The position numbers and the translations under genes were made by a program. Shown in pieces: positions 24,715 to 64,000 of a stretch of 64,000 nucleotides of DNA. Within the stretch, counting starts at the first letter, position 1, and every line of letters begins with the position of its first letter. The stretch comes from a virus: positions 1-64,000 of the IMG/VR virus record IMGVR_UViG_3300049893_001984; one strand, written 5' to 3'. The notes beneath the pieces were generated by a model. The model was not told the origin of the DNA and made no database searches. It saw only the letters and a program-made list of their open reading frames with translations.

Positions 24715-24985
24715 TTTTGCCTTCCTTCCATTCTTCGCCTTCTTCGTTTTCCATATCTTCCATTACGCCCTTAACTACCATTTTAAGGTATACCATTTCG
24801 TCGCCAGACATGTAAGGAGTGGAAAATATTTCCACCTCAACATTTGAAGTGCCCACCTCTTTCAACGCCCGTATAGCTTCTGTGCACATACCAAAAAGGG
24901 CGCATAGCCCAGCTATGTTAACTTCAACAGAAGGTCCTGATCCTGTTTGAGTTACAACAAGCTTCGGTAGATCCTCGTCGGTCAT
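24701..24985 (-). CDS. small acidic hypothetical protein
   Basis: 94 aa; overlaps both neighbours. Confidence 0.7.
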   Translation of the reverse strand: MTDEDLPKLVVTQTGSGPSVEVNIAGLCALFGMCTEAIRALKEVGTSNVEVEIFSTPYMSGDEMVYLKMVVKGVMEDMENEEGEEWKEGKNGEP

Positions 24986-25686
24986 AACTCGATCCCCTGC
25001 AGATCACTCATTTGCTTGGCTATTCTCGCTGCCCGCTGCGACACAGCGGATGGTGTCAGGTTCAATCTCTTAGCAATGTCGTTAGTTGAAAGCTTTGACT
25101 TGCCGTTATACCCGGTACGCCACTCCAGTATCTTCTGATCTATTGGGTGTAAGTCGTGGTGCAGATACTCCATGAGTATTTGGTTATGATCAGGCTTCTC
25201 TGTTCCAGGGTAGAACACTCCTTCGTCACCTTCGTCGTTCTCTGTAAGCTGGCTTTCAATATACTCGCCACCTTGATGCTTACGGATGTGACGCAACCGT
25301 TTCATAGACAACCCAGAGTGGTCAGCTAGCTCCTGGTCGCTAGGCTCTCTGTTAAATTGGTCTTGGAACTTCTGGTAACTTTGGTTCATGTTATACAGGT
25401 CAGCCTGTATACGCTCTGGGACATGTACTGCTGTGGTCGACTCTTTGTGGATACGGGACAAGGGCTGAAGCTGCGTCATTAAATGCGTGTTAAGCTTTGT
25501 ACCCTTGGACGGGTCATAGCTCTTGAACGCTTTAATAGCCAGCATCTTGGCATGAGGTTTCATGGCGGAGTTTCCCTGCGCATAAGACTGCACACCAGAG
25601 TTAAGGGTGGGGGCTGCCTTGTCTAACAGCTTACCCATGTTTTCTGGCGTAGGGTTCTTCTTCCAAATTTCAAATTCTTGTTCCAT
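24982..25686 (-). CDS. RNA polymerase sigma factor, sigma70 family (regions 2-3-4 only)
   Basis: AFKSYDPSKGTKLNTH (region 2), VHVPER...FNREPSDQELADHSGLS (region 3), LHPIDQKILEWRTG...STNDIAKRLNLTPSAVSQ (region 4 HTH). Confidence 0.85.
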   Translation of the reverse strand: MEQEFEIWKKNPTPENMGKLLDKAAPTLNSGVQSYAQGNSAMKPHAKMLAIKAFKSYDPSKGTKLNTHLMTQLQPLSRIHKESTTAVHVPERIQADLYNMNQSYQKFQDQFNREPSDQELADHSGLSMKRLRHIRKHQGGEYIESQLTENDEGDEGVFYPGTEKPDHNQILMEYLHHDLHPIDQKILEWRTGYNGKSKLSTNDIAKRLNLTPSAVSQRAARIAKQMSDLQGIEL

Positions 25687-37522: not shown

Positions 37523-37541
37523 GAGGTAGCTCTCCTTAAAA

Positions 37542-38252
37542 CTACTTTGGTCTTACGTCTACAGCAATTGACTTTAACCAAGGCGCTTCCATGTCAACGC
37601 GCCAAGATTTAGAGTATGCATAGTTTACAACAACCGGCACAACAAAGTGTTCCGCAGATTCATCTAGAATAGCGGGATCTTCCATCGTAATCTCGTCAAA
37701 AGTCATAAAGTTTAGTGCACGTCTTATAACAGGACCAAACTCCATGAGATGATGGAAAACTTCGTCAGCTAACAAGTCCGACTCTGCGGCTGAAAAGGCA
37801 ACGCAGTATATAGTGTGCGTTCCTCTTACAAGCCTAGAGTGGAACTCCCCAGGAACGCGAACAAGCTTTTTAGTATTCTTATCATAAATAGCGCCGGTAG
37901 TCATCCCGTTATCTATACATCTCTTTTCTGGGACTTGCTTTCCACGCTTTACGTAGATTGCAGCTCTACGCTGTATGTCTTGTGCAATATAACGGTAAAC
38001 AGGCTCAATCTGTATCGTTGTGAGCTTAGCGTCTTTGTTCCAGACAAGGTCCTCCAGCTGTCTTTTGTGCTGGCGTGTCTCGTGGTTTATAAACTCGTTA
38101 GAGCCTTCAAACTCTAGCTGCTGCGGGTTAGAGAAATGCTCCTGCAGCATACGTACAAACAAACCAGTCAGGATATTACCAGTAAACCGCGTAGTGCATA
38201 GACTACTGGCTGTGTCCAGTCCGATGTTTGTCGTGTTCAGGCTTAGATTCAC
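37542..38252 (-). CDS. tail terminator / completion protein
   Basis: Position before sheath; RAAIYVKRG...GTHTIYCVAFSAAESDLLADEVFHHL pattern. Confidence 0.6.
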   Translation of the reverse strand: MNLSLNTTNIGLDTASSLCTTRFTGNILTGLFVRMLQEHFSNPQQLEFEGSNEFINHETRQHKRQLEDLVWNKDAKLTTIQIEPVYRYIAQDIQRRAAIYVKRGKQVPEKRCIDNGMTTGAIYDKNTKKLVRVPGEFHSRLVRGTHTIYCVAFSAAESDLLADEVFHHLMEFGPVIRRALNFMTFDEITMEDPAILDESAEHFVVPVVVNYAYSKSWRVDMEAPWLKSIAVDVRPK

Positions 38253-42904: not shown

Positions 42905-43840
42905 TTAGTAGAAGTCCACGCGACCAACAGCAGCCACGTTGGCAATAGCCGCGCCGATGGACTCGTACGCGAAGAACTCAAGCATGTACGCACGCCGATC
43001 AATGTACATGGTCGTGTCTTCGAGCACGTAGAACTTGCCATGGAACTTCGGTTCGGCAAACAGGAAGACCGTGTCGTCCGGAACCAGGTCGCGCTTGATA
43101 GTGATGATCCAGCGACGGCCCATGAGCTCCTGTTCAGAGAACCCAGTCTTGAACAGTTCCTGAGACATGTCACCGCCGACCTCATCACGTCCAAACTTAA
43201 CGATATCCCAAATCGTCACGTTGTTGATGAGAACGGTTGCCACGTTCAGGTGGTACGGCGTCTTAGGCAGCGTCTTCATGGCCTCAGCCAGGTTGTCACG
43301 GGTAACGCCACCAGTGATCGAGCGCCACTGAACCGTATTCGTTTCAGTGACTGTAGAACCAGCGGAACCGCCCAGAAGGCTGTTCACAACCGCGATGTAC
43401 TTACCATCTTCCTCGGCCAGCATGTCCTTCACGCTGTTGTCAGACAGCACCTGGCGGATGTCGATGTTGTACGTGCGCAGTTCATCCACGTCCTTAATGA
43501 ACTTCGGAGTAAGGATGCGGTCGAACATAACCCGGAAGCGGGGTCCCTTGATGTACCGATTGGACGGCATCGTACCAAAAGGCACGCTGACGGCCGCAGG
43601 ACTATCCGGTTCCTTGTCCACAACCTTCACCGGCTTGTCCGTATCAACCTGGCGATCAAGTTCATCGTTGGTGATAGTGACGGGCGGGAGAATGCGGCGG
43701 AAGAAGCCGTCTTCGCGGATCTTGAGGCGGATATAATCATTCACCGCATCTTCGGCCTGCTTCTGAATACCAGAATCCTTAGACGTGAGCTTGTCCAGGA
43801 CGGTGTTGTTAATCATTTTAACTGTAGGATCGTTACTCAT
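42905..43840 (-). CDS. major capsid protein, HK97 fold
   Basis: 311 aa; IRLKIREDGFFRRILPP, RILTPKFIKDVDEL, EFFAYESIGAAIAN; follows protease/scaffold/decoration genes; strong terminator; GC3-biased codons. Confidence 0.85.
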   Translation of the reverse strand: MSNDPTVKMINNTVLDKLTSKDSGIQKQAEDAVNDYIRLKIREDGFFRRILPPVTITNDELDRQVDTDKPVKVVDKEPDSPAAVSVPFGTMPSNRYIKGPRFRVMFDRILTPKFIKDVDELRTYNIDIRQVLSDNSVKDMLAEEDGKYIAVVNSLLGGSAGSTVTETNTVQWRSITGGVTRDNLAEAMKTLPKTPYHLNVATVLINNVTIWDIVKFGRDEVGGDMSQELFKTGFSEQELMGRRWIITIKRDLVPDDTVFLFAEPKFHGKFYVLEDTTMYIDRRAYMLEFFAYESIGAAIANVAAVGRVDFY

Positions 43841-46464: not shown

Positions 46465-47916
46465 TTACACTTTAATGTAGTTACGCATTACAAGCAAGGT
46501 GTTAGTTATTGGATCGTTACCCGTGAGACTAGCAAACGACAGCTGATACTTTACGTACTCCTTGGCCAGCTCAGCCGCTTTCACGGAGCAAGAAGCGGTT
46601 TTAACTGATCCAAGGTTCTTAAAAGCAGGCTCATCTCCACGTACCGTGGCGGCTAAAACCCTGCGCTGAACTTTATTCTCTGCGATAGAGTAGTCGTTTT
46701 GCAACTCCTCGGCTACCTTTACCGCCGACAAAGGGTATACATTAGTTGGGCTGTAAGCACAACTATCTATACAAGTTTCCAAGTCGAAGTTGCTTATATT
46801 AGAGTACATACCAGGAAGCAAAGCTTCAACCTCTGAAGCTTCTTTATAACTCCCTTGGCCTGTAAGGGTAAGGAAATCCATTACAGATAACGGAATCTTA
46901 GCAGAACCAAGAGCGCTAAGGGCGTGGGCAGTCTTGTGCGACTTCAACTCTTCCATAGCTTTACTTGGTATGTTCTTGGTGCAACAGCCCAAGGCTAGCT
47001 TGTTTGCCAGGTGCTTGTTGTCAGCACCAGCAGCTACGGCTTCGATCTTCTTCTCAATCTCAGCCAGCTTTTTGGCGGCAGAGAGCTTAACGGCGGCGTA
47101 CTTGGAAGATACGCCAAGGAGTTCGACTGGAGCCGATACCCCCAGCTCTTCTGCCAGCTCAGCTCCGCCAATTGGCCGCTCCAAAACAGAAGCAACCTTC
47201 TGCAGGGACCAAGCTATTCGGTCTGCAGGGCGGACTACCTTTGATATATCAAAGAAGGTGGGCTGGTCGTTAATAGCAAAAACCTGGTGCCCACTCTTAA
47301 TAATAGAAGTCATGTGGTCTCGCAGGTGCTCGCAGTATTCCCCGCGATGCTTTGCTTTGTTACCACAGATAGAACAAATATCGTAAGGAACCTTGGCAGC
47401 CATCGAGAATGGGATGTCTTTACCAGAAGCAAGCTTCTGCAAGTCACCTTCCCACTCTTTATCGTGAGGAACCTTTATGACAAGTTCGCCGCGATGCATG
47501 TCTTTATTATAAGCAGCCGCCTTTATCTGTCCGATAGACTTGGCAGGGTCGTCGTTCTTGTGATGCTTATAGACATGCCCGTGCTTCATAAACGTGCTGT
47601 CGTGCCGACCTATTAGGCCGTCAACCATGTCGTAGTACCCAGGCTGACCCGGCTTAGGGAAAGGGATGGTGAAGCGAGCTTGTTTCTCGTTGAACCCGTC
47701 ACCATTCCTGTTATTGCCGAACATCTCCATAGCACCAAGGGAGATCAAATGAATAAGGCTGTGACCAGGCTCTGGCCGAAGCTCGGCCATCTTAGGAGTG
47801 AACAATGCAGCACGTTTCTGCATCCACGATCGATCTACGCCCCTGGAATGCACATCCATAAGACGTGCAACCGGGGTTCCAAAATCGAATGAGTCGCTGG
47901 TTATAACCTTGATCAT
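46465..47916 (-). CDS. prohead maturation protease (assemblin-like) with C-terminal extension
   Basis: NRNGDGF, HVYKHHKN, and FSMAAKVPYDICSICGNKA...YCEHL nucleophile/Zn motif; position upstream of scaffold and capsid genes. Confidence 0.8.
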   Translation of the reverse strand: MIKVITSDSFDFGTPVARLMDVHSRGVDRSWMQKRAALFTPKMAELRPEPGHSLIHLISLGAMEMFGNNRNGDGFNEKQARFTIPFPKPGQPGYYDMVDGLIGRHDSTFMKHGHVYKHHKNDDPAKSIGQIKAAAYNKDMHRGELVIKVPHDKEWEGDLQKLASGKDIPFSMAAKVPYDICSICGNKAKHRGEYCEHLRDHMTSIIKSGHQVFAINDQPTFFDISKVVRPADRIAWSLQKVASVLERPIGGAELAEELGVSAPVELLGVSSKYAAVKLSAAKKLAEIEKKIEAVAAGADNKHLANKLALGCCTKNIPSKAMEELKSHKTAHALSALGSAKIPLSVMDFLTLTGQGSYKEASEVEALLPGMYSNISNFDLETCIDSCAYSPTNVYPLSAVKVAEELQNDYSIAENKVQRRVLAATVRGDEPAFKNLGSVKTASCSVKAAELAKEYVKYQLSFASLTGNDPITNTLLVMRNYIKV

Positions 47917-47927
47917 GTTTAACCCCG

Positions 47928-48569
47928 TTAGTAAGTCATGTGGACCTTGTCAACACGCTTATCTCCTGTGCTTGCGATTGTTGCAAGCCTTCTTTGCATG
48001 TTGTCAATGTAGCTAGATAGGTACTGGGACCTCGGTATGTTAGGCAGGTCACCTATAGCTGGGCCTGTGTGATGGTTGTGTATATACGCGCCAGGTGATC
48101 GCAGCTGATAGGCAGGCTCAGCAACATGGCTAAGGCTGATAGGCCCTGGCATTATACCTGGTTTTACCACCCTTTCAGAAACGAGCTTATTAACAGTCTT
48201 ACGCGCATCAGATTTCGCCGTTTGTAAGGGATCTCCGCCATAATTATTCCACCCTGTGGCCATGTTTTTATTAAGCGCCTCAAGGCCTGGCTTCAAGGAT
48301 AGCGTAGCGCTACGGTCTCCAGCAGCAGGTGCCATGGTGTGGCTCACCATGTTCATAACGCTTTTAACTCTATCGGATGGAAGGCTAGATATTGCGTCTA
48401 ACTCTCTTTCTCTGCGCCACTGTGGGCCGTACCTGTGATGTTCGTCTCTATACTGGATTGGAACTGGTTTACCTTTGTTAGCTTCGCTCATAAGACGAGA
48501 GCGCATGGCGTGAAATATGACATTATCAGGGTTTAGCGCCGTTTTGATAAGATAGCCTAGATGGTTCAT
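47928..48569 (-). CDS. MNHL-tagged hypothetical protein
   Basis: Starts MNHLGYLIKTA; remainder unrelated to other tagged proteins. Confidence 0.75.
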   Translation of the reverse strand: MNHLGYLIKTALNPDNVIFHAMRSRLMSEANKGKPVPIQYRDEHHRYGPQWRRERELDAISSLPSDRVKSVMNMVSHTMAPAAGDRSATLSLKPGLEALNKNMATGWNNYGGDPLQTAKSDARKTVNKLVSERVVKPGIMPGPISLSHVAEPAYQLRSPGAYIHNHHTGPAIGDLPNIPRSQYLSSYIDNMQRRLATIASTGDKRVDKVHMTY

Positions 48570-54449: not shown

Positions 54450-55163
54450 TTAACGGAACATGCCACCCATCGGCATACCGCCAAACCCACCGCTGTACAT
54501 ACCGCCGCCACCAGACCTGGCCAAGTTGCCCATCATTTCATTCATTTCAAGATTACGCTGCTGGTTCTTCAGCGCCATCTGATTGACCTGCTGCATGGTG
54601 CGCGGGTCCTGTCCACCCCACGAGGTGGTGCTACCCATACCAGCGCCGGGGGCTGTGTTCATCCACCGATTATACAGGTGACCGAGCCCAGCTGCTCCAA
54701 CCAAGCCACCAGCGCCAAGCCCGAGCATGAGGGGCCAACCGGCTTGTTTCTTGAAGAACTCTGCGCGAACACGCCCAACAGGCAGCTTGTTGTCATTAGC
54801 CACTTTAGCAAACAACTGATGCGGTATCTTGTTGACGTTACCGGCGTAACCATGGTGGGCAGCCAGAAGCTCGAGCTGGTGAACAGCCAAAGCAGTGTCA
54901 GACGCCATTTTTGGCATCTCCACTTCATTGTTAGGAACTCTACCCTTATCAGTTGCTGGTGCAGTTATGTTGGTGTCGTGCTTAGGAACGTCCATTTTAG
55001 ACGTGAGTGAACTGTTAGGCTTTGTAATCTTCGGAGCACTTTTAGCCCCTTCAGACTGCTTTGCCTCTGGCGCCGCACCTTCATTAGCCTTTTTCTGCAT
55101 CCAATAGGACAGGAGGCTCTTAAGTTGAATGTTTTCGGCTTGTTTTCTCATGCTCTTACTCAT
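54450..55163 (-). CDS. K-x-A putative internal head protein with glycine zipper
   Basis: KQA, KKA, KMA, KVA, KQA; KKQAGWPLMLGLGAGGLVGAAGLG. Confidence 0.75.
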   Translation of the reverse strand: MSKSMRKQAENIQLKSLLSYWMQKKANEGAAPEAKQSEGAKSAPKITKPNSSLTSKMDVPKHDTNITAPATDKGRVPNNEVEMPKMASDTALAVHQLELLAAHHGYAGNVNKIPHQLFAKVANDNKLPVGRVRAEFFKKQAGWPLMLGLGAGGLVGAAGLGHLYNRWMNTAPGAGMGSTTSWGGQDPRTMQQVNQMALKNQQRNLEMNEMMGNLARSGGGGMYSGGFGGMPMGGMFR

Positions 55164-55187: not shown

Positions 55188-57032
55188 TTAGTAACCAACG
55201 CCATCAGGCGGTTTACCAAACTCGGTGCCTTGTGCCAGTGCTGGTATATACGAAGTTCCGTGCACATTGGAATCTCTGCCGCGATGGGTTGACTCAAGCA
55301 ACCCTTTCTTAGACTGCCATCCGCCCAACCTGACCATCCAATCATCAGCGTGCGACAGTGTTTCCATCGCGCGCTGCATTTCAGGTTGAAACGATGGCGG
55401 GTCCACGTGCGCCTTAACAGTTCCGAACTTATGCTCGTCTAAAGTCTTTATTACACTTGGTGTTATCTTTGTTCCTATAGAGTAATGTAACGCCGGTTGC
55501 TCTAGATACAAGCCTCTGGCTTGTTTAGGCTCCAGTGTTTTATGTCCAAAACGAGGTTTGTAGTCGCGGACAAGATTATCGTACTCAACGACGTCATCAG
55601 GAACTGTGTCATGTGGGCCGTCAATATCAGTAACCTGTACGTGATTTATAAGCCCCCTCGATAACAATTCCACGTTCCGTCTATGTGCAGCGAGTCCTGA
55701 CTCCTTTAGTGTTTTGTGCAGGTAATCAGTGAAGTAACGTCTCCCTTCACCAATCCCTTTGTGACGGACAATGTCTGCTGGGTTAGGTATGCCTGTAGAC
55801 ATAATGTCACCAGCTTCCACTTCATCACCTTTCTTTACGTGAATATTTTCATCCGCAGGTGCCCAGTGCTGTGTGTTACCCACATAAATGTAGTTACCGC
55901 CTTGGGGGGCTGGCTCAATCCTCTCTACCCTGCCTTCTACCTGTGAAATGGCGGCTGCCCCTGCAAACGTTTTAGGAACTTGGACTAACTGAGTAATAAG
56001 GTCTAAGCCTTGCTTCGTCTGCTTCTTTACACCAGATACAAGACCGCCTCCATGCTTTGTTCCAAGTTGGCCCTGTCCGATCGGTTCACTTATTGCCTGC
56101 GCGGCTGCGATTCCGGGGTTATCACCGATTGGTGAAAATCCGTTTCTTTCGTGAATGCCAACACACTTCTGGCAAACACCGTGAGAAGACTGACATGAGA
56201 TAGGTGAGCGTACAACTATTTTCTTGTCGCCAAGCGTCTGAAGGTGCTTCGGAGTCAATATAGTTCCAGCCGCAAGTCCACCTGCTGGAAAAGCTAGAAC
56301 AGCCCCCTCATTCTCGGGGTCGCTAGCACTAACTGGCATACCATTAACTGTTCCACAATCCTTCTCGGTAATCATGAGCCGGTGTGCGGCCAAGGCCATC
56401 TGTTTACCAAGGAACCCCGCTTTAGGGGTGGCAAACTTAGTGGCAACGCTGCCCTTTCTAGCGCCGTAAGAACCAGCCCAGTACTGAACAGGGTCAAGCC
56501 CCTCGGCATAGCTGGAAAGAATGGGGATGGGGATAGGCTGATCCTTATGGTCAGCCACCATCAAATCTCCAGCTGTCATAGACCGAAACTGTGCTTTATT
56601 ACCGCGTGACCCGGAGTGGACCTGGACTGCCAATGAGTTATTGTTCTTGAAGTGTTCTTCAAAGTTGGCCTTTTCTACAGGATCCACATACGGGACTACA
56701 GTAGACACAATTTCCTTATCTTTGGCAGTCTGGTCTATTGGTTTGGTTAAAATATTATTTATCTTACCCTGCAACTCATCGCGTAACTTCTTTACGCCCT
56801 CTGGCGGCTTAAGGTTAGAAAGGGAGAAAGAAGTCTCTCTCCCGTGCGTAGTTATGATCTTTGTGGCTATGTTATGCAGCTTCTGATTGATCTCTGAGTA
56901 TTTGTCTGGATAACGTTCGGCCACCTGGGTCATCAAATTCTTGAGACCCTTTTTATCAATAACGCGGCTGCTGTCCCGAAGGTCTTCGGGCAGTGCCTCG
57001 TTAAGCATAAGCTGGCCTACAGTCATTTCCAT
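55188..57032 (-). CDS. rpoC: RNA polymerase beta-prime subunit, C-terminal half
   Basis: SGSRG, bridge helix GLDPVQYWAGSYGARKG...DCGT, Zn site SPISC...CQKC, trigger loop EPIGQGQLGTKHGGG. Confidence 0.9.
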   Translation of the reverse strand: MEMTVGQLMLNEALPEDLRDSSRVIDKKGLKNLMTQVAERYPDKYSEINQKLHNIATKIITTHGRETSFSLSNLKPPEGVKKLRDELQGKINNILTKPIDQTAKDKEIVSTVVPYVDPVEKANFEEHFKNNNSLAVQVHSGSRGNKAQFRSMTAGDLMVADHKDQPIPIPILSSYAEGLDPVQYWAGSYGARKGSVATKFATPKAGFLGKQMALAAHRLMITEKDCGTVNGMPVSASDPENEGAVLAFPAGGLAAGTILTPKHLQTLGDKKIVVRSPISCQSSHGVCQKCVGIHERNGFSPIGDNPGIAAAQAISEPIGQGQLGTKHGGGLVSGVKKQTKQGLDLITQLVQVPKTFAGAAAISQVEGRVERIEPAPQGGNYIYVGNTQHWAPADENIHVKKGDEVEAGDIMSTGIPNPADIVRHKGIGEGRRYFTDYLHKTLKESGLAAHRRNVELLSRGLINHVQVTDIDGPHDTVPDDVVEYDNLVRDYKPRFGHKTLEPKQARGLYLEQPALHYSIGTKITPSVIKTLDEHKFGTVKAHVDPPSFQPEMQRAMETLSHADDWMVRLGGWQSKKGLLESTHRGRDSNVHGTSYIPALAQGTEFGKPPDGVGY

Positions 57033-58696
57033 TAATGCATCGCTCCCATGGATCCAGGTACGGTACCTAAGTGTTTAGCACCCGGAGCCGTCCTACCAAT
57101 TGTGGTAGTTTCCTTCGAAGTTCCACCAGGCCCGCTGCTCTCGGTTGTAGTTGATGTGCCAGTGACCGGCGTGTTTCGCATCCTCTGTTTATCTTTGTAA
57201 GCCCGCTCAGCCTCAGATCTAAGGCCTGGATTGCTTAACCTGCTGAGGTCAGGCTTTTGTGTTATGTTACTTCCTATAGGCTTGTTGTTTATCTCCGTCG
57301 TCGTTGTGGTCGACTTAGCCGCTGGCGCTTGTGTTTCCGGTGGAGATGACATAGGCGCCGTTGCTGCCGCTGGTTCTTGTGTGGCTGCGGGTGCCTGCAA
57401 AGGAGCGGAAGGGGCTGCTTGCGCTCCAGCCATACCGCCAGTCATACCAGTAGCAGTACTACCCGCCATACCTCCAGTCATGCTAGCAGCTGTACCACCA
57501 GCCATACCGCCAGTCATGCCAGTAGTCGTACTACCGGCTGCACTACCCGCCGTACTACCAGCCGTACCACCAGCTGTGCTTCCCCCAGGACCTTCCGGCT
57601 TAGGTACAGCCGCATCAGCAGGTTTACTAGCCGTCGCACCTGAATTCGTCGGTGCTCCTGCCATACCAGACATACCACCCATCGCAGCGCTCATGCCAAT
57701 ACTCTTACCCTTTGCCTGGTTATTAGCCAATGGGGGGGTTGGCACTACGCTTTCTCTAGGATGCCCTTCATGCTCTTTCTCTGAGATCCCAGGGCGGGTA
57801 TACCGTTCTTTCAGTGCAGTTTTCAACTCAGGGAACTTTGCGGCCAACCGCTCTTTCTCTTTCTGGCTAGCTCCACCGTACATACGAAGAACCTGTCCTG
57901 GGTCCATATTATTGGCCAAAGCAGTTTCAATCTTTTGATCTATGCCACTTCTGCGTGCGTCACGCATCTTCAGCATTTCATCTCTTCCGCCTTCGTTCCA
58001 TGAGCGATCTATCTTCTCGGCGGCAGTATGCGGATCTTTACCGAACAGACCCTGCCAGGCCATTGAACCTAAGCCTTTTACAGTTCCTGTAATGGGAGAC
58101 AACCAACCGCCACCCATCGTTGTGTCTTTGTATGTCTTCTGTCCAGCTTCGAACGCGTCTCTAAAATCCCCATCACCCCAAAGAAACCCAGCCAGCTTGC
58201 TCATTGCTTCTGCGTCTTCTTTGTCGAAACCATTTTCAGCGCAAAATCTGTCAATGCCAAACTGAAAAGCGGCCATCTTGTTGGCTAAAACTATTGGGTT
58301 TAAAGGAGCTGAAACAGCTCCAGTAACTGGATCTTGAACGATGACCGGCTGTCCACCGTTAAGATCCTGCATTTTTGCTTGCTCGTAAAGCATTTGTCGC
58401 TGACGTTCTTTAATAATCTCTTTTTGCATCTTATATGTATCTTCGTACATCTTAGCTGCTTGGTCGTGCATCTGCGCAACATTAGCTACCTGCTGCTGAG
58501 TCGTGTCCATGCCTACTGCTTTATTGGCCATAACCTGCATACCAGTTCCGAGGCCAGTTTGTACGGCCAAGGTGGGGCCTTGCTCTTTAGTGATGCTCCA
58601 AATAGCAGCGGGTGCCTTTCGCACGTTTTTAATAATATCACGTACGAAAGCTTCCTTGGTAAGGTTTAGCTTTGAGATCTCGTATGGGTTATGCAT
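57032..58696 (-). CDS. K-x-A putative internal head protein with Gly/Met/Thr repeats
   Basis: KEA at residue 14-16, KMA, KLA; repeated MTGGMAG segments. Confidence 0.7.
   Translation of the reverse strand: MHNPYEISKLNLTKEAFVRDIIKNVRKAPAAIWSITKEQGPTLAVQTGLGTGMQVMANKAVGMDTTQQQVANVAQMHDQAAKMYEDTYKMQKEIIKERQRQMLYEQAKMQDLNGGQPVIVQDPVTGAVSAPLNPIVLANKMAAFQFGIDRFCAENGFDKEDAEAMSKLAGFLWGDGDFRDAFEAGQKTYKDTTMGGGWLSPITGTVKGLGSMAWQGLFGKDPHTAAEKIDRSWNEGGRDEMLKMRDARRSGIDQKIETALANNMDPGQVLRMYGGASQKEKERLAAKFPELKTALKERYTRPGISEKEHEGHPRESVVPTPPLANNQAKGKSIGMSAAMGGMSGMAGAPTNSGATASKPADAAVPKPEGPGGSTAGGTAGSTAGSAAGSTTTGMTGGMAGGTAASMTGGMAGSTATGMTGGMAGAQAAPSAPLQAPAATQEPAAATAPMSSPPETQAPAAKSTTTTTEINNKPIGSNITQKPDLSRLSNPGLRSEAERAYKDKQRMRNTPVTGTSTTTESSGPGGTSKETTTIGRTAPGAKHLGTVPGSMGAMH
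57428..57590. repeat. degenerate coding tandem repeats (MTGGMAGxTA / GSTA)
   Basis: Three CCATACC(G/T)CCAGTCAT units about 36 bp apart plus 12-bp GSTA-type repeats. Confidence 0.7.
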
Positions 58697-58896
58697 CTTG
58701 CATTCAATCCTATACCAAGGCCCTTTAATACATTAACGAAGTCGGGCTCCCCGGCACTACATGTATATATACTACCCTTATCTAGCTTCTGCACAACGAG
58801 TATCGGGTTATTGAAATCATCGTAAACTACAATGGAGCGTAAGTCATTCAAAATGACCGGCTCCGATAGGTCGGAGCCGGTTGTCCGTGTGTGCAC
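58666..58896 (-). CDS. small hypothetical protein
   Basis: GTG start behind AGAGGTG; contains an 11-bp perfect hairpin at 58856-58881. Confidence 0.7.
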   Translation of the reverse strand: MHTRTTGSDLSEPVILNDLRSIVVYDDFNNPILVVQKLDKGSIYTCSAGEPDFVNVLKGLGIGLNARCITHTRSQS

Positions 58897-58918
58897 GATT
58901 ACACCTCTCTAAACCGGG

Positions 58919-59806
58919 TTAACCGCGTATAGCTCTCAGTATGTTCTTGATAGTTTTACGCCGGTCCTGGTCATGCTCGTAGGAAGCTTGAACCTGCATT
59001 CCGCCAGGAGCAGGCTGGCCACCTGCACTAGGGTCTGCCGGAGGAGCAGCGCCCATTGACGGGTCTCCGCCAACCATAGGAGTAGGTCCAGCCATATCAG
59101 GGGAAACCCCTGCCCCAATTGGGGCTGGCGCACCGCCAGGTTGATCTTGTCCACCAGCCGAGTCCTGACTCCCACCACTAGACTGGGGGGCAGAACCGCC
59201 TCCAATAGGGAGACCAAGTGCGCCAGCAATCTGCAGCATAATCTCTTTCATGGAGCGCACTTCTTTTTCTACGGCTTCCATGCGTATGTCGTTCTTGGCG
59301 CCCTTACCAGCTCCTTTAGCTCCGCCAGAGTTGGGGTCGTTAGGTGCACCTCCGCCTCCACCCTGCTGTCCGCCCATTGCTTGAGCTGCTTGCATAATTA
59401 GCTGCTGAAGATCCTGAGGCTGAAGCATAATAGGGGCGCCCGGTCCGCCACCTATCGCTGCCGGGTCTCCACCTTGGCTGGGGTCGGCTGGGGCTCCGCC
59501 GCCTTGACTGGGGTCGGGGGGCATCCCACCTGCTGAGGGGTCTTGGGGCGGCGGACCTCCAGGACCAGGAGGCGGCCCACCACCCATAGGGCCAGGAGCA
59601 CCACCACCAGGAGGCATGCCAGCAGGAGGCGGTCCTCCGGCCCCCATTGGGACGAACGCCCTTTTCTGGAGAGTTTCAGCTGTCTTTGCCGCGTTTGTTG
59701 CTGTTGCTGCCACAGCTGCCGCTGCAGCCTGCTTTGTGTGCTGCTGTGCGTAAGCCATTCGTGCTGCGAGTCTGGCTTTTTGGAATACATCGAATTCGCC
59801 TTTCAT
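58919..59806 (-). CDS. Pro/Gly-rich K-x-A putative internal head protein
   Basis: KQA, KTA, KRA then long GGPPP/DPS tract with a central short helix. Confidence 0.75.
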   Translation of the reverse strand: MKGEFDVFQKARLAARMAYAQQHTKQAAAAAVAATATNAAKTAETLQKRAFVPMGAGGPPPAGMPPGGGAPGPMGGGPPPGPGGPPPQDPSAGGMPPDPSQGGGAPADPSQGGDPAAIGGGPGAPIMLQPQDLQQLIMQAAQAMGGQQGGGGGAPNDPNSGGAKGAGKGAKNDIRMEAVEKEVRSMKEIMLQIAGALGLPIGGGSAPQSSGGSQDSAGGQDQPGGAPAPIGAGVSPDMAGPTPMVGGDPSMGAAPPADPSAGGQPAPGGMQVQASYEHDQDRRKTIKNILRAIRG

Positions 59807-59809
59807 GTC

Positions 59810-60061
59810 TTACCTTTCAAAACGGTTTAAGTTTCTGGCAATCCCTGCTCTAACTGGCGCGCGGCGCGCACCAGGTTTCTCGTTTGCAACAAGCTGATCT
59901 ATCGTCTTCTGCTTATCTGCATCCCACACATCCTCTATTGGATTACCATTACTGTCTTTGGCCGTCTGGGTCAAGGTATGATCCATAGCGGCACGACGAG
60001 CCTTCCAAGCCTCAGCCTGTTTCTGTAGTGCCATGCTTATAAGGTATCGGCAGTGGTTCAT
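59810..60061 (-). CDS. small protein with degenerate MNHL-type tag
   Basis: Starts MNHCRYLISMALQKQA. Confidence 0.7.
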   Translation of the reverse strand: MNHCRYLISMALQKQAEAWKARRAAMDHTLTQTAKDSNGNPIEDVWDADKQKTIDQLVANEKPGARRAPVRAGIARNLNRFER

Positions 60062-60654
60062 TCTTGTCTTCCGCTAGCGCGCAGGGATTCAGCTATGAGC
60101 TTAGCTCGCTCTTCCTTACCATATCGTTGGGCGAGGTAACCAAGGCCTCCGCCAGCAGCAGTGCCTATCAAGGCGCCAATGCCTGGACGGCTAGAGTGAA
60201 GTTCGCCTAAAACTGCACCCAAGCTGCCCCCTGTTCCAGCGCCAAGGGCTGGTATTAGCCAAGGATTACGTGAACTTTCAGCTGCTTCGCCTAAAGCCAT
60301 AATTTCCTCTGGCTTATACTTGTGTTTCTTGTCTATACGCCCTTTGAGATGGTCGTTATATAGCGTGTCTACGTTATGGTCTTGTAGTTTGTTTTCTAGA
60401 TAACCAATACCAGCGCCAATACCTCCACCTACAGCCGCTCCAAGCCATGGCTTAGGATTGTCAAAACCATGGCTGGCGATGGCGCCTAACCCAGCACCTG
60501 CAAGTGAATTACCTCCAATGGTTAAAGCACGGGATAGGGGAGGGTTCATTTTATTCCGCATATACTCAGCAGCAGCGCCTTCGTCCAAATACAGGTCTGG
60601 TTCGTGAACAAACCCACTAACTGCGGATTTAATTAGATAGGACAAGTGTTTCAT
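60058..60654 (-). CDS. MNHL-type tagged glycine-zipper protein
   Basis: Starts MKHLSYLIKSA; four GxxxG hydrophobic segments in two repeats. Confidence 0.75.
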   Translation of the reverse strand: MKHLSYLIKSAVSGFVHEPDLYLDEGAAAEYMRNKMNPPLSRALTIGGNSLAGAGLGAIASHGFDNPKPWLGAAVGGGIGAGIGYLENKLQDHNVDTLYNDHLKGRIDKKHKYKPEEIMALGEAAESSRNPWLIPALGAGTGGSLGAVLGELHSSRPGIGALIGTAAGGGLGYLAQRYGKEERAKLIAESLRASGRQE

Positions 60655-60656
60655 TG

Positions 60657-63600
60657 TTAACCTTTCACCACGACCTTATCGTGGATATCAATATCGCCAC
60701 GCTGGTATGCGGCTATAACATCCGCCTTTGAGCGGAAAACCCTGGGCGGCTTATCGTTCTTTGAATTGCTAGCCAAATACAGACCCATCAGGAACTCATT
60801 GCGCGGCAAATAATGTACACCAAAGTCACGCGTAGACTTCAGGTTAACACTTGGCAGCATTTTCTCTCGTGCTTCTTTTACCGCTTCTTCAGTCACAGGT
60901 ACATGATAATTCATAGCGTCGCCGTCAAAATCAGCGTTGAATCCATTACACACGACTGGAGGAAGCTGCAAAGTGTGGCCTTTACTAAGTTTAGGGAACG
61001 CTGCCATGAAGCCATACCTGTGGTAAGTTGGCGCACGGTTAATCATAACCGGTCGCTCTTTCATCTCTTCCAACATCGTCTTACGAGCCAGGTCTGTCTG
61101 GTTGGCAACTGATTTAGCTGCCTCAACGGCGGGCAAACCTTGCCGAATAAGGCGGCGTACAATAAACGGACGGTAGATCGTCCAAGCCTTAGGCTCCGGC
61201 AACCCCACCTCATCCATACTCAGGTCAGGGTTAGGTGTGATAGCTGCGCGGCCAACCATGTCCACAGGCATACCAAGGACACGGCGCTGGAACATACCCA
61301 TCTTGGGGCTGTTTCCAAAGACGTGGGCCAACAGACCCTTAACCTTCTTCTCCTGCGTCTTCTCCTGCACAGGGTCACCCAAGCCTGACACAGCCTTAAC
61401 AGCGTTATAAAGCTGCAACCGTTCTTCGTTAAGGTGCTCATCGCCAACCTGACCAGACAGGTCCTTAAGGGCCTGGTTAGAGGTCATGAGATCCTTGTAC
61501 AGAAGGTTAGCGTCGGCAACCAAAGGAAGATCCTTGAACTTGGTGATTGGCCTGAAGTTAGGGGGTATCACCGGAACCTTATTCATCATAAGTTCCTTGG
61601 GGTGTGTACCTTCCTTCTTCAAGGTCTCCAAGTAACCCAGGACCTTTACAGCGTTATCACGCTTACTCTTGGCACCGTCTTTAATAATGCTCTTATAGCG
61701 TTCAATTTCACCATCAACGTTTATGCGCCCCAACGCAGCTTGAATAGCTTTTGGTCCAGTTGCACCACCAAGCTGTTCTTGCCCGCCCAGGATTGCCTCA
61801 AACTTCTTTCCAGTCAGTCCAAGCATGCGCCTAACCGGTTCTTCAAACACAGGGTTAGGCATGGGTTCGTGCAGGTTGATGTGTCCCCATCTATTACCAC
61901 CGTGGCCACCAGTAATAGTACGGTCAAACAGGCCACCAGGAATCTCAGTCATGTCGTTCTGATCGACAGTCTTGTTTTCCTTGATCTCACCACTGCTCAT
62001 CTCGTCTACATGCTTGTCTGTAAGAGCGAACAGATGCAGCTTGTTGCCGTCCTTTTCCACGTTTATGCCTGCGCCCTTCAGGTGGGCTAGGAACTTATTG
62101 TAGATCAGCGGTTCCTTAGGTGAAGGAGGGGTAAGCCCCATACGGAAGGCTTTCCAGTAGTCGTCATTGCGCTGACCACGGATAACCTGTGCTTCCCTAA
62201 GAACGTTAGGAACGCCGTGAGACAGCAGGGAGAAAGTCTCCATCTGGGAGATTCTCTTCGCACCCTCATCGCCGCCCCTGGCGGGAAGGCCCTCACTTGT
62301 GTACCCACCAACGTCTCTACCTTTACCTTTACCTTCTGCCAGGTGGTGCAGCTTCATCATGAAACGCTCACCAGTCAGAACCCCAGGTATTGACTTCCCT
62401 GTTTCAGGATCAACCAGGTCCTCTGTGTCCTTAAGCCCATGCTTAGCCAGCTCTTCTTGTACGTGGTCAACGCTAGCCTTACCTTTAAGACCAAACCCAG
62501 GCAGAAGAACAGGTTGTCCTGTCTTACGAGCGATCTTACCGAGCAGCGCTTCATACACCTGGCTGGGGTTGATACGGGAGATGATACCCAGGGAGTTAAG
62601 GATCAGTTCCAAGGGTTTGCCGTCTTTGGAGTGAGGCATCTGGTGGTCAGGGATAACCCGGCTGATAACACCCTTATCACCGAAGAACCCGGCCAGCTTA
62701 TCGCCCTCTTGGGCAGGGGCATGGCTCTTGACAGTGATGTTCCAATCACCGTTCTTGTTCTGTGTGACGTCGGTTACAACACCATCGTGTACGTGATCCC
62801 ATTCCATGGCTCCGTTGGAGAACATGGGTTTATGCCCTTTATGCACAGCGTCCTGCTGGCTGCGTCTAAGGGACAAGAACAGAGGATCTCCATGCTTAAC
62901 GACCGTGCCAACCTTCACCACACCGTTTTCATCGATAGGCTTCAGCTGGTTTGGTTTATAGGCCCCAGGATATAGTGACAGAAACTGTTTTCTGCCTAAC
63001 ACTGTTTCACCCGGAGTGTGTTCTAGCACGCGCTGATACATGTGCTCACTACGCAGGCGCTGGGCGGCTGACTCACTGATGATCACACCGTCTTCGAAGG
63101 CCAAACCCTTGTACGGCATATAGCCAGTACGCAGGTTAGTGCCCATGGCTATCTGGCCTTTGTCGTCCGTGTAGTTACTCTTGGCCAGGAGCTGGCCTTT
63201 GCCAACTGCGTCGCCAATCTTAACAACGGGCGTGTTGTGCAGGAACGTGTTATGGACGATCAACCCACCGCACACTGCAAAGTTCTCGGAGCCTTCCACA
63301 CAGAGGTCATAAACGAAGTCTTCGTTAGGGTGTGGGGTGATGTCCGTAATCAAATCCCACATAACATCGGACCTGCCCCACTTGCCGTAGGTGCCAGAAC
63401 CTTCTCTCAACCTATCCTTAGCTACAAATCCCAAAGAAGCGGTTTTGTATCTAAACATTGAAGCCGACTCAAACTCCTTGTACATAGCCTTTCTACCAGC
63501 TTTAGTTACTGGCACAGACTCAAAAGGAGATGCCCTGAACTTCTTCTTGAGTTTACTGGCAAACCTGGCTTGTTTGTCTGCGTAGAAGAACCAGCTATCC

Positions 63601-64000
63601 AACTTTCCAAGGTGTCTGCTAATTACTCTCAGACTGTAAACATCGCGCCAATTGGTATTTTCCAGGCGCTGCTCTTTATGTGCTCTGGTAGTGAAAATAC
63701 CAAGAGAAGCTAGTAAATCACACAGGTCGTCACGCAGCTGCTTGGAGACAGACGCGGCCCCTAGTTGTATGGCTCCATTGCTATCCGACCAAACACAACC
63801 ATCCCCGCCAAAGTACCCGCTGATAAGGCCTTGTTTAAATTCATTAGAGGCCGACAAGTACTTTTCAGGTATCCGCTTGTTGTGGGCAAGGTGACCGAAC
63901 GAGCTAGTAAGCCAATCGCACAAGGCGTGATCCGTCAAACACACAGAACCGCCATTGCGATAAGGCTCTCTACCGTTGGTTACTTTTCTAAGCAGGCTAA
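60657..64000 (-). CDS. rpoBC: RNA polymerase beta fused to beta-prime N-terminal half, intein-containing; 5' end outside window
   Basis: beta motifs FEDGVIISE, GDKLAGFFGDKGVIS, SRINP, KLHHLAEGK; then beta-prime motifs VIPPNFRP, VDMVGRAAITP, INRAPTYHR, NADFDGD; frame is open to position 64000. Confidence 0.95.
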   Translation of the reverse strand, partial: SLLRKVTNGREPYRNGGSVCLTDHALCDWLTSSFGHLAHNKRIPEKYLSASNEFKQGLISGYFGGDGCVWSDSNGAIQLGAASVSKQLRDDLCDLLASLGIFTTRAHKEQRLENTNWRDVYSLRVISRHLGKLDSWFFYADKQARFASKLKKKFRASPFESVPVTKAGRKAMYKEFESASMFRYKTASLGFVAKDRLREGSGTYGKWGRSDVMWDLITDITPHPNEDFVYDLCVEGSENFAVCGGLIVHNTFLHNTPVVKIGDAVGKGQLLAKSNYTDDKGQIAMGTNLRTGYMPYKGLAFEDGVIISESAAQRLRSEHMYQRVLEHTPGETVLGRKQFLSLYPGAYKPNQLKPIDENGVVKVGTVVKHGDPLFLSLRRSQQDAVHKGHKPMFSNGAMEWDHVHDGVVTDVTQNKNGDWNITVKSHAPAQEGDKLAGFFGDKGVISRVIPDHQMPHSKDGKPLELILNSLGIISRINPSQVYEALLGKIARKTGQPVLLPGFGLKGKASVDHVQEELAKHGLKDTEDLVDPETGKSIPGVLTGERFMMKLHHLAEGKGKGRDVGGYTSEGLPARGGDEGAKRISQMETFSLLSHGVPNVLREAQVIRGQRNDDYWKAFRMGLTPPSPKEPLIYNKFLAHLKGAGINVEKDGNKLHLFALTDKHVDEMSSGEIKENKTVDQNDMTEIPGGLFDRTITGGHGGNRWGHINLHEPMPNPVFEEPVRRMLGLTGKKFEAILGGQEQLGGATGPKAIQAALGRINVDGEIERYKSIIKDGAKSKRDNAVKVLGYLETLKKEGTHPKELMMNKVPVIPPNFRPITKFKDLPLVADANLLYKDLMTSNQALKDLSGQVGDEHLNEERLQLYNAVKAVSGLGDPVQEKTQEKKVKGLLAHVFGNSPKMGMFQRRVLGMPVDMVGRAAITPNPDLSMDEVGLPEPKAWTIYRPFIVRRLIRQGLPAVEAAKSVANQTDLARKTMLEEMKERPVMINRAPTYHRYGFMAAFPKLSKGHTLQLPPVVCNGFNADFDGDAMNYHVPVTEEAVKEAREKMLPSVNLKSTRDFGVHYLPRNEFLMGLYLASNSKNDKPPRVFRSKADVIAAYQRGDIDIHDKVVVKG
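63249..64000 (-). mobile_element. intein with LAGLIDADG homing endonuclease (C-terminal part)
   Basis: GLISGYFGGDGCV endonuclease block; splice end VYDLCVEGSENFAVCGGLIVHN followed by extein Thr. Confidence 0.9.

What the first reader, a model, noticed from the sequence alone, without database searches (positions are those of the whole stretch)
55188..64000. RNA polymerase re-partitioned: beta fused to beta-prime N-half, C-half encoded 3.6 kb away among head genes
Seen: one ORF carries beta C-terminal motifs, then continues without a stop (LKGAGINVEKDGNKLHLFALT) into beta-prime up to the NADFDGD catalytic loop. A second ORF (55188-57032) resumes at the next expected element (TVGQLMLN) and supplies bridge helix and trigger loop. 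Five K-x-A/tagged genes lie between them. Established: full beta/beta-prime fusions occur in Helicobacter and Wolbachia; cyanobacteria and plastids split beta-prime into RpoC1/RpoC2 close to this same point. Inference: a fusion-plus-split, bacterial-like phage RNAP. Its position inside the head operon suggests it may be packaged or co-expressed with head proteins. No alpha subunit is visible, so it either borrows host alpha or is alpha-independent.
Basis: partly seen in the sequence, partly recalled or inferred. Interest (0 to 1): 0.8.

Follow-up and report, generated by a model that had tools for sequence, protein, structure and literature searches.

The report
Two-piece phage RNA polymerase, beta fused
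An uncultured 192-kb phage encodes a bacterial-type RNA polymerase as two proteins, a whole beta subunit fused to the first half of beta-prime (interrupted by an intein) and a separate second half of beta-prime; the same layout is shared by a very large, barely described phage clade in which a cultured relative carries the enzyme in its virions.

Summary

**The two RNAP genes**
- The left ORF runs off the window. The full ORF is genome 60657-66608 (-), 1983 aa.
- It encodes a complete beta, not only its C-terminus. Beta is interrupted by a 406-aa LAGLIDADG intein and then joined with almost no linker to beta-prime, as far as about 90 residues past NADFDGD.
- ORF 55188-57032 (-) supplies the rest of beta-prime: bridge helix, trigger loop and second Zn site.
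- Five small ORFs lie between the two genes.

**Not an assembly artefact**
- All 120 top relatives (52-66% identity, from several data sources) carry beta and beta-prime domains in one protein.
- All beta-prime C-halves that I inspected begin at the same split point.
- Salmonella phage Arash and Vibrio phages D181/D148/D69 share the same junction and split.

**Other subunits**
- No alpha, omega or second RNAP was found in this genome. Alpha is also absent from the complete Arash and D181 genomes.
- A 234-aa sigma-like gene (24982-25686) is conserved in all three.

**Virion link and prior description**
- In Arash, published virion proteomics found both RNAP proteins and the sigma-like protein abundant in particles.
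- The accessible papers never mention the fusion-plus-split layout. The published "mReC" phage RNAPs have separate beta and beta-prime ORFs.

**Verdict:** a new architectural variant of a known kind (phage multisubunit RNAP). Packaging and alpha-independence in this phage are inferred, not shown.

The parts
60657..64000 (-). In-window part of the 1983-aa beta::beta'N fusion ORF (full ORF genome 60657-66608, stop included; P0003)
   Evidence: open frame of 1986 codons without stops
63249..64000 (-). C-terminal 250 residues of a 406-aa intein (residues S715-N1120 of P0003; genome 63249-64466). It has two LAGLIDADG motifs, ends in HN and has +1 Thr1121.
   Evidence: Pfam Intein_splicing and LAGLIDADG_3. 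Intein-free relatives read NRK|TF at exactly this place. Similar to PI-PkoII in all three parts. Coordinates.
62055..63248 (-). Beta C-terminal extein (residues 1121-1518): FED motif, GDK..G.KG lysine loop, beta C-terminal clamp. It ends aligned with the last residues of bacterial beta.
   Evidence: Rpb2_6 E 3.7e-46; PDB alignments to beta residues up to 1266/1269; motif coordinates
60660..62054 (-). Beta-prime N-half (residues ~1519-1983), starting about 5 residues after the end of beta. The Zn ribbon is replaced by a short Gly-rich loop. Clamp helices are present. NADFDGD lies at 60918-60938.
   Evidence: Rpb1_1, Rpb1_2; alignment with E. coli RpoC; PDB beta' hits covering residues 1598-1983
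60058..60654 (-). 198-aa glycine-zipper protein with the N-terminal tag MKHLSYLIKSA
   Evidence: Pfam Gly-zipper_YMGG; sequence; tag
59810..60061 (-). 83-aa protein with the N-terminal tag MNHCRYLISMA. It has a homologue at the same place in L007.
58919..59806 (-). 295-aa Gly/Pro/Ala-rich low-complexity protein. It has a homologue at the same place in L007.
58666..58896 (-). 76-aa conserved small protein. In relatives it is encoded directly upstream of beta'C. Candidate RNAP partner with a confident fold model but no known fold match.
   Evidence: 209 representative clusters; adjacency to beta'C in L008, L018, L019; AF2 pLDDT 90; no PDB match
57032..58696 (-). 554-aa low-complexity (Gly/Ala/Thr/Met-rich) protein. 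Its stop overlaps the beta'C start codon.
55188..57032 (-). Beta-prime C-half, 614 aa (P0002): bridge helix 56382-56465, trigger loop 56043-56105, second Zn site Cys cluster. SI3 is absent and the C-terminus is divergent.
   Evidence: Rpb1_4/Rpb1_5; PDB beta' hits; alignment to E. coli RpoC; coordinates
54450..55163 (-). 237-aa Gly/Met-rich low-complexity protein directly downstream of beta'C. In many relatives beta'C itself carries a 500-900-aa low-complexity C-terminal extension.
24982..25686 (-). 234-aa sigma-70-family-like protein, homologue of the Arash virion protein gp10. Probable specificity factor of the phage RNAP.
   Evidence: Sigma70_r3 28.5 bits vs cut-off 25.3, weak r4; 26% identity, E 2e-21 to Arash gp10; same-size gene in Arash and D181; only one such gene in the genome, 21.8 bits in the six-frame search

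Best explanation
The window encodes the catalytic core of a phage-owned, bacterial-type multisubunit RNA polymerase built from two polypeptides instead of beta, beta', two alpha and omega.

**Chain 1 (1983 aa before splicing, about 1577 aa after)**
- A complete beta whose C-terminus runs, after about five residues, into the N-terminus of beta'.
- It continues through the clamp helices and the Mg-binding NADFDGD loop.
- A canonical 406-aa intein with a LAGLIDADG homing endonuclease interrupts beta at the position of E. coli beta T763. It must splice out to give an active enzyme.

**Chain 2 (614 aa)**
- The rest of beta', with the bridge helix and trigger loop.

**Shown by sequence**
- The domain content and the catalytic motifs.
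- The exact junction, split and intein boundaries.
- Their conservation across a large clade.

**Inferred**
1. The covalent beta-beta' tether takes over the assembly role of the alpha dimer. No alpha or omega gene exists in this record or in two complete relatives.
2. Promoter recognition is by the conserved phage sigma-like 234-aa protein, since the beta' clamp helices are retained.
3. The enzyme and the sigma-like factor are packaged into the capsid and delivered with the DNA, as the Arash virion proteome suggests. They would then transcribe phage genes independently of host RNAP.
4. The enzyme is rifampicin-insensitive. The three classical resistance positions of beta (E. coli D516, H526, S531) read E, Q and L here.
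5. The 76-aa protein conserved next to beta'C is an accessory subunit or assembly factor.
For: **Domains and motifs**
- Pfam and PDB searches.
- Alignments to E. coli RpoB/RpoC.
- Present: FED, GDK..G.KG, NADFDGD, bridge helix, trigger loop and the second Zn cluster.

**Intein**
- Boundaries are fixed by intein-free relatives.
- An allelic intein, 48% identical, sits at the same site in P0009.

**Conservation of the layout**
- At least 1980 proteins with E<=1e-10. The top 120 all carry Rpb2_6 and Rpb1_2 in one chain, from JGI, ENA, Logan and NCBI assemblies.
- Neighbourhoods L007 and L008 show the order fusion gene, 5 or 2 small genes, beta'C.
- Among 120 longer beta'C homologues none is joined to beta'N or beta. 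In the 40 whose coordinates were printed, and by the median over all, the beta'C part starts at residue 1-2.
- L019's beta'C also starts at the same point.
- Arash and Vibrio phages D181/D148/D69 match across the junction in one tblastn piece.

**Phylogeny**
- In a beta' tree the five fusion+split taxa form one group with 100/99 support, apart from three bacteria and from unsplit or otherwise split phage RNAPs.

**Other subunits**
- No alpha, omega or T7-like RNAP, and only one beta/beta' set.
- Alpha is absent from the complete Arash and D181 genomes.
- The sigma-like gene is conserved.

**Virion association in a relative**
- Arash gp206 had 3516 spectra, the most of any protein.
- gp216 had 1210 spectra and the sigma-like gp10 had 467 (PMC10585845).

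**Genomic context**
- The genes lie co-oriented just upstream of the protease-like gene, the major head gene and baseplate genes.

**Rifampicin pocket**
- The substitutions are read from the HMMER alignment.
Against: - No experiment exists for this phage. Packaging rests on a relative that is only 26-35% identical.
- The Arash authors themselves note that abundant enzymes may simply co-purify with particles.
- The record is an estimated 92% complete linear contig, so a missing alpha or omega gene cannot be fully excluded here.
- Divergent functional analogues of alpha or omega would escape Pfam models.
- The sigma-like protein passes the Pfam cut-off only for region 3. It scores below cut-off in the six-frame search.
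- I found no shared promoter motif upstream of genes.
- Neither RNAP chain carries the N-terminal tag seen on neighbouring putative cargo genes.
- Intein splicing competence is inferred from motifs only.
Confidence: 0.8

Rival explanations
1. The enzyme is a non-virion polymerase. It is made after infection, from host-transcribed early genes, to transcribe middle or late genes. Its presence in Arash particle preparations would then be carry-over of an abundant protein.
For: The Arash authors raise this possibility. The Arash preparation yielded 116 proteins, including nucleotide-metabolism enzymes, which suggests contamination. Only one RNAP set exists, unlike phiKZ-type phages with separate virion and non-virion enzymes.
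Against: gp206 gave more spectra than the major capsid protein. The genes are embedded, co-oriented, in the structural module in Arash, D181, L007, L008 and here. The flanking genes are low-complexity or tagged proteins of the type expected for internal or ejected proteins.
Confidence: 0.2
2. The two phage chains are not self-sufficient. They recruit the host alpha dimer (and omega) to assemble, giving a hybrid enzyme.
For: All characterised bacterial RNAPs need alpha for assembly. No phage alpha was found.
Against: The beta' C-terminal region that binds omega in bacteria is not conserved. phiKZ- and AR9-type phage RNAPs work without alpha or omega (PMC7598289). A virion-delivered enzyme would have to be active before meeting host subunits. 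The beta-beta' tether is the change expected to relieve the need for an assembly platform (inference).
Confidence: 0.12
3. The fusion and/or the split is an assembly chimera, a frameshift or a gene-calling artefact.
For: It is a single metagenomic contig, and I could do no read mapping.
Against: The same junction and the same split occur in more than 100 independent assemblies from four sources and in four sequenced cultured phages. The open frame is uninterrupted for 1986 codons.
Confidence: 0.01

Closest known systems
Salmonella phage Arash gp206 / gp216 (OQ632216; Yousefi et al. 2023, PMC10585845) and Vibrio phages D181/D148/D69
   Same: Same beta::beta'N junction and same beta' split point. 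Same missing beta' Zn ribbon. Sigma-like gene of about 235-240 aa. No alpha. RNAP genes lie upstream of the head genes. One clade in the beta' tree.
   Different: Only 26-35% identical. No intein. Arash's intervening genes are different and partly on the other strand. In D181 beta is further split by a free-standing homing-endonuclease gene. The Arash paper annotates the proteins as plain beta and beta' and does not describe the architecture.
mReC: multisubunit-RNAP-encoding Caudovirales (Weinheimer & Aylward 2020, PMC7481178); cultured look-alikes Rhizobium phage RHph_Y65 and Vibrio phage Va2
   Same: Tailed phages of about 100-300 kb with RNAP recognisably close to the bacterial enzyme. The RNAP genes lie among structural genes.
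   Different: Their beta (999-1563 aa) and beta' (902-1303 aa) are separate ORFs, and beta' is unsplit (supplementary data). RHph_Y65, Va2 and RP13 form a different group in the beta' tree.
phiKZ/AR9-type jumbo-phage virion and non-virion RNAPs (Sokolova et al. 2020, PMC7598289)
   Same: Phage multisubunit RNAP without alpha or omega. Beta' is split after the catalytic double-psi beta-barrel. One enzyme is packaged in virions.
   Different: Those enzymes are far more divergent. They have beta split into 2-3 pieces and no beta-beta' fusion, come as two paralogous sets, and have no sigma homologue. Here there is one set, the fusion and a sigma-like gene.
Helicobacter / Wolbachia RpoBC fusion (established knowledge, not tested here)
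   Same: The beta C-terminus is joined directly to the beta' N-terminus in one polypeptide.
   Different: The cellular fusions carry the whole beta' and still use alpha and omega. Here beta' is cut after the catalytic loop.
Cyanobacterial / plastid RpoC1 (gamma) + RpoC2 split
   Same: Beta' is divided in the linker after the catalytic barrel. Solved cyanobacterial RpoC2 chains begin about 15-20 residues after the phage split point.
   Different: The position is not identical. Cyanobacterial beta is separate. RpoC2 carries a huge SI3 insertion that the phage lacks.

Membership tests
Bacterial-type multisubunit RNAP core (beta + beta') | Beta double-psi barrel region with FED and GDK..G.KG motifs | tested here: met
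   Rpb2_6 E 3.7e-46; motifs located; alignments
Bacterial-type multisubunit RNAP core (beta + beta') | Beta' NADFDGD Mg loop, bridge helix, trigger loop | tested here: met
Bacterial-type multisubunit RNAP core (beta + beta') | Alpha dimer and omega subunits encoded or used | tested here: not met
   No PF01000, PF01193 or PF01192 match in the 192-kb record. No PF01000 match in the complete Arash and D181 genomes. Use of host alpha is not testable here.
Bacterial-type multisubunit RNAP core (beta + beta') | N-terminal beta' Zn ribbon (E. coli C70/C72/C85/C88) | tested here: not met
   Replaced by a short Gly-rich loop in all five clade members aligned
RpoBC fusion of Helicobacter/Wolbachia type | Beta C-terminus continuous with beta' N-terminus | tested here: met
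   Beta ends at residue ~1518 and beta' homology starts at ~1524
RpoBC fusion of Helicobacter/Wolbachia type | Complete beta' in the same chain | tested here: not met
   The chain stops about 90 residues after NADFDGD. The rest is a separate ORF 3.6 kb away.
Cyanobacterial RpoC1/RpoC2 split | Split at the same residue, with a separate beta and SI3 in RpoC2 | tested here: not met
   The split lies about 15-20 residues upstream of the RpoC2 start. Beta is fused. SI3 is absent.
phiKZ/AR9-type phage RNAPs | Two paralogous sets (virion and non-virion), beta split, no sigma homologue | tested here: not met
   One set only. Beta is whole here. A sigma-like gene is present.
mReC RNAP (Weinheimer & Aylward 2020) | Separate beta and beta' ORFs, each >=800 aa, with NADxDGD in the beta' ORF | tested here: not met
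   Paper criteria and listed ORF pairs. Here one ORF holds beta plus NADFDGD, and the other beta' piece is 614 aa.
Arash-like fusion+split RNAP clade | Same junction, same split, sigma-like partner, monophyly | tested here: met
Arash-like fusion+split RNAP clade | Presence of the proteins in virions | not testable with these tools
   Shown only for Arash by mass spectrometry
Class 1 intein with LAGLIDADG homing endonuclease | N-terminal Ser/Cys, block B TxxH, C-terminal HN, +1 Ser/Thr/Cys, two LAGLIDADG motifs, precise insertion relative to intein-free alleles | tested here: met
   S715; TEDH..VHN|T1121; two LAGLIDADG-like motifs. Splicing activity is not testable.
Sigma-70 family | Regions 2, 3 and 4 | tested here: inconclusive
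   Region 3 scores 28.5 bits, over the cut-off. Region 4 scores 17 bits, below it. Region 2 was not detected here, but is weakly detected in Arash gp10.

The most novel reading that the evidence does not exclude
The beta::beta'N tether is a general substitute for the alpha-dimer assembly platform. It would define a minimal, self-assembling, sigma-dependent two-chain bacterial-type RNAP, possibly with the conserved 76-aa protein as a new small subunit. The enzyme would be packed into capsids and ejected with the DNA by a very abundant, essentially unstudied clade of ~200-kb phages.
Probability: 0.35. Interest if true: 0.75.

Novelty: new variant of a known kind. Interest (0 to 1): 0.62.

Why it matters
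**Why the layout is distinctive**
- Phage multisubunit RNAPs are known mainly from the highly divergent phiKZ/AR9 enzymes. Those have no sigma, and their promoter recognition is exotic.
- This clade keeps an enzyme close enough to the bacterial one to align residue by residue.
- It retains the clamp helices and has its own sigma-like factor.
- It nevertheless dispenses with alpha, omega and the beta' Zn ribbon, and redistributes the two large subunits.

**What it could be used for**
- It is a natural experiment on what a bacterial-type RNAP minimally needs for assembly and initiation.
- It is directly testable, because Arash and the Vibrio phages are in culture.

**Scale**
- The clade is large: at least ~2000 protein clusters in public metagenomes, on contigs up to 211 kb.
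- Its transcription strategy therefore matters for environmental phage biology.

**Side result**
- The fusion gene is also a marked intein hot spot, including insertions inside the NADFDGD catalytic loop.

Tried and rejected
- **Nucleotide search:** a megablast of the region against 50,697 phage records found nothing.
- **Neighbouring genes:** PHROGs and Pfam gave no hits for most neighbours.
- **Promoter motif:** a k-mer search for a shared motif upstream of genes found only the Shine-Dalgarno sequence.
- **Sigma-70-type promoter scan:** it found fewer sites than in shuffled sequence.
- **The 76-aa protein:**
  - The first fold (4 sequences) was poor, pLDDT 61.
  - A deeper alignment gave pLDDT 90.
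  - Foldseek/PDB gave no hit at E<=0.001, and VIA-align wide gave at best Z 2.8. Its function stays unknown.
- **Membership of the published mReC set:** considered and rejected, because mReC has separate ORFs.
- **phiKZ-type membership:** considered and rejected, because there is one set, a sigma-like gene and a much closer relationship to bacterial RNAP.
- **Literature:** searches for a described phage beta-beta' fusion or a phage rpoB intein found nothing relevant in the open-access library. This is not proof of absence.
- **Other 'phage' matches:** the Listeria, Staphylococcus, Enterococcus, Acinetobacter, Escherichia and Salmonella records are, for those fetched (Enterococcus, Acinetobacter), bacterial rpoB-rpoC DNA in unverified records, and most likely so for the others. 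None is a relative.
Full report
**Where the window lies.** The window is the first 64 kb of a 192,334-bp linear IMG/VR virus record that CheckV estimates to be about 92% complete. Nearly all genes in this part are on the minus strand.

**The observation.**
- The ORF at the right edge of the window is open at its 5' end.
- Read in the whole genome, it starts at an ATG at 66608 and stops at 60657. It encodes 1983 residues (P0003).
- Pfam places the following in one frame, in this order: Rpb2_3, an intein splicing domain with a LAGLIDADG domain, Rpb2_6 (E 3.7e-46), Rpb1_1 and Rpb1_2 (E 9.8e-27).
- phmmer against all solved structures matches bacterial beta over residues ~64-710 and 1121-1518. The match reaches the last residues of beta chains. 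It matches bacterial beta' residues ~158-560 over residues 1598-1983.
- The second ORF, 55188-57032 (P0002, 614 aa), carries Rpb1_4 and Rpb1_5. It aligns from its second residue with bacterial beta' residues ~553-1180.

**Anatomy of beta-prime.** I aligned the clade's beta' parts with E. coli RpoC.
- Beta' homology begins about five residues after the end of beta, at LHLFALTD, residue 1524.
- The N-terminal Zn ribbon of beta' is replaced by a short Gly-rich loop in all five clade members.
- The clamp coiled-coil, which binds sigma region 2 in bacteria, is retained.
- NADFDGD is at residues 1891-1897.
- The chain ends opposite E. coli beta' ~551-569, and the second chain begins opposite ~570.
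- The bridge helix, the trigger loop and the second Zn Cys cluster are present.
- The trigger-loop insertion SI3 is absent, and the extreme C-terminus (the omega-binding region in bacteria) is not conserved.
- Solved cyanobacterial RpoC2 chains start at P0002 residue ~10-17. The phage split is therefore in the same linker but 15-20 residues earlier.

**Rifampicin pocket.** In beta, the rifampicin cluster I aligns without gaps. E. coli D516, H526 and S531 correspond to E, Q and L. From established knowledge of resistance mutations this predicts a rifampicin-insensitive enzyme. This is an inference.

**The intein.**
- Relatives without the insertion read ..NRK|TF(L/S)H... The inserted element is therefore exactly S715-N1120 (406 aa) with Thr1121 as the +1 residue.
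- It has an N-terminal Ser, a TEDH block B, two LAGLIDADG-type motifs and a C-terminal ..VHN.
- It resembles the PI-PkoII intein endonuclease in its N-splicing, endonuclease and C-splicing parts.
- Thr1121 aligns with E. coli beta T763.
- P0009 has a 48%-identical intein at the same site.
- The window holds only the last 250 residues of the intein (63249-64000).

**Not an artefact: a clade-wide architecture.**
- A search with residues 1121-1983 found at least 1980 proteins at E<=1e-10. All of the best 120 (52-66% identical) cover most or all of the junction-spanning query, and all carry Rpb2_6 and Rpb1_2 in one chain. They come from JGI, ENA, Logan and NCBI assemblies, on contigs up to 211 kb.
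- Two neighbourhoods were read. In L007 (204-kb contig) the order is fusion gene, five small genes, 615-aa beta'C. In L008 (200-kb contig) it is fusion gene, two small genes, 624-aa beta'C.
- A search for longer proteins containing beta'C found 750 hits. In the best 120, none is joined to beta'N or beta. The median N-terminal extension before the beta'C part was one residue, and the 40 whose coordinates I printed all begin at residue 1-2. The extra length in most is a 500-900-aa Pro/Gln/Gly/Ala-rich C-terminal tail, and in a minority inteins or other domains.
- Among 50,697 phage records, only Salmonella phage Arash and Vibrio phages D181/D148/D69 match across the junction in one piece. They share the junction, the missing Zn ribbon and the split.
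- In a maximum-likelihood beta' tree of 12 sequences, the five fusion+split taxa form one group (100/99). It is separate from three bacteria (100/100) and from a group holding RHph_Y65 and Va2 (unsplit beta') and RP13 (split). Sampling of bacteria is too thin to say anything about origin.

**Partition is fluid inside the clade.**
- In L007's phage the first ~260 residues of beta are a separate 287-aa ORF 1.9 kb upstream (71% identical to residues 29-266 here).
- That break coincides with the place where this phage carries a Cys/His-rich insert (residues ~267-358). Other relatives carry 2H-SAK, SET, GNAT or DUF5661 domains; I did not map where in the protein those domains sit.
- In D181 a free-standing homing-endonuclease gene separates a 532-aa beta N-part from a 1006-aa betaC::beta'N protein.
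- Other phage lineages show other layouts. YerA41 has beta'N | beta'C | beta as adjacent genes. RP13 has beta'N and beta'C six genes apart. RHph_Y65 and Va2 have an unsplit beta'.

**Other subunits.**
- The whole record has one beta/beta' set only.
- It has no match to alpha (PF01000, PF01193) or omega (PF01192).
- A search for T7-type RNAP found nothing, but its control also found nothing, so that result is uninformative.
- Alpha is also absent from the complete Arash and D181 genomes.
- A 234-aa protein at 24982-25686 (-) scores over the Pfam cut-off for Sigma70_r3 and weakly for region 4.
- That protein is 26% identical (E 2e-21) to Arash gp10, which is annotated as a sigma factor.
- Arash and D181 each have such a gene of ~240 codons. 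It is the only one in this genome.

**Context and virion link.**
- Downstream in the same orientation lie a gene homologous to an Arash structural protein with a weak prohead-protease match (46465-47916), the major head protein (42905-43840) and a baseplate wedge gene (22108-23769).
- The same order, RNAP then head then tail, is seen in Arash.
- The Arash paper reports virion mass spectrometry (PMC10585845):
  - gp206, the fusion protein, was the most detected protein: 3516 spectra, 100% coverage.
  - gp216, beta'C, had 1210 spectra.
  - gp10, the sigma-like protein, had 467 spectra.
  - The authors caution that abundant enzymes might co-purify.
- Packaging in this phage is therefore an inference from a 26-35%-identical relative plus gene position.

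**The genes in between.** There are five ORFs.
- A 198-aa glycine-zipper protein.
- An 83-aa protein.
- A 295-aa Gly/Pro-rich protein.
- A 76-aa protein.
- A 554-aa low-complexity protein whose stop overlaps the beta'C start.

Only the first two carry the N-terminal tag M[NK]H[LC]xYLI, which occurs on just four ORFs in the genome.

The 76-aa protein is the only globular-looking one.
- Its family has 209 representative clusters.
- In L008, L018 and L019 it lies 1-7 nt upstream of beta'C.
- Its AlphaFold model is confident (pLDDT 90) but matches no solved fold.
- I propose it as a candidate RNAP partner. This is unproven.

**Literature.**
- The phiKZ/AR9 review states that those RNAPs lack alpha, omega and sigma, and that their beta' split coincides with the cyanobacterial one.
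- Weinheimer & Aylward's mReC contigs were selected for separate beta and beta' ORFs of at least 800 aa. The listed pairs are distinct ORFs. Their text never mentions a fusion, split or intein in these phages.
- I found no paper that describes the beta::beta'N + beta'C layout, within the limits of the open-access library.

**Verdict.**
- The feature is real and conserved: a distinct architectural variant of phage-encoded, bacterial-type RNAP.
- It belongs to an Arash-like clade that is very common in metagenomes.
- Shown here: sequence-level anatomy, conservation, and the absence of recognisable alpha and omega.
- Inferred: alpha-independent assembly through the tether, sigma-like-directed initiation, virion delivery, rifampicin insensitivity, and a role for the 76-aa protein.

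Noticed in passing
relatives P0006-P0119 (fusion-gene family); own site window 63249-64000: The fusion gene is an intein hot spot. Large insertions sit at 10 or more distinct positions. One is directly after or inside the NADFDGD catalytic loop (e.g. P0051, P0110, P0046, P0119). Another recurrent ~330-350-aa element starts CY..TEV.T and ends ..GN|S, and occurs at four sites.
   Followed up: partly
window 24982-25686 (-): A 234-aa sigma-70-like protein sits among tail and baseplate genes. It is a homologue of the Arash virion protein gp10 and is the only sigma-like gene in the genome.
   Followed up: partly
window 58666-58896 (-): A conserved 76-aa protein family (209 representative clusters) is normally encoded directly upstream of beta'C. 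The AF2 model is confident but has no match to solved folds.
   Followed up: yes
window 58856-58881 (-): A strong hairpin (11-bp stem, 8 G-C pairs) followed by a short T run. It lies at the very 5' end of the 76-aa ORF as called, just after the 295-aa gene. It may be an internal terminator or attenuator, or a sign that the 76-aa gene starts further downstream.
   Followed up: no
window 18936-19667, 47928-48569, 59810-60061, 60058-60654 (all -): Only these four ORFs in the genome begin with M[NK]H[LC]xYLI[KS]xA. Two of them directly follow the RNAP fusion gene. Neither RNAP chain has the tag.
   Followed up: partly
window 54450-55163, 57032-58696, 58919-59806; relatives P0129-P0248: Gly/Pro/Ala/Met-rich low-complexity proteins flank beta'C here. 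In many relatives beta'C itself carries a 500-900-aa low-complexity C-terminal extension. This hints at a functional link, possibly in packaging or ejection.
   Followed up: partly
L007:7222-8085 and genome 65500-65810 (outside the window): In a 65%-identical relative the first ~260 residues of beta are a separate ORF. The break point coincides with this phage's Cys/His-rich insert (P0003 residues ~267-358, CxxC...HxxxC).
   Followed up: partly
L002 (Vibrio phage D181) 7815-13329: Beta is split by a free-standing homing-endonuclease gene into a 514/532-aa N-part and a 1006-aa betaC::beta'N protein. That gives a three-chain version of the same enzyme.
   Followed up: partly
genome ~65100-65170 (P0003 residues 471-495, outside the window): The rifampicin-binding cluster I of beta has E, Q and L at the positions of E. 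coli D516, H526 and S531. This predicts rifampicin insensitivity.
   Followed up: no
window 34718-37612 (+) and 34763-37522 (-): Two very long ORFs (964 and 919 aa) overlap almost completely on opposite strands. The minus-strand one fits the local gene orientation. Neither matched PHROGs.
   Followed up: no
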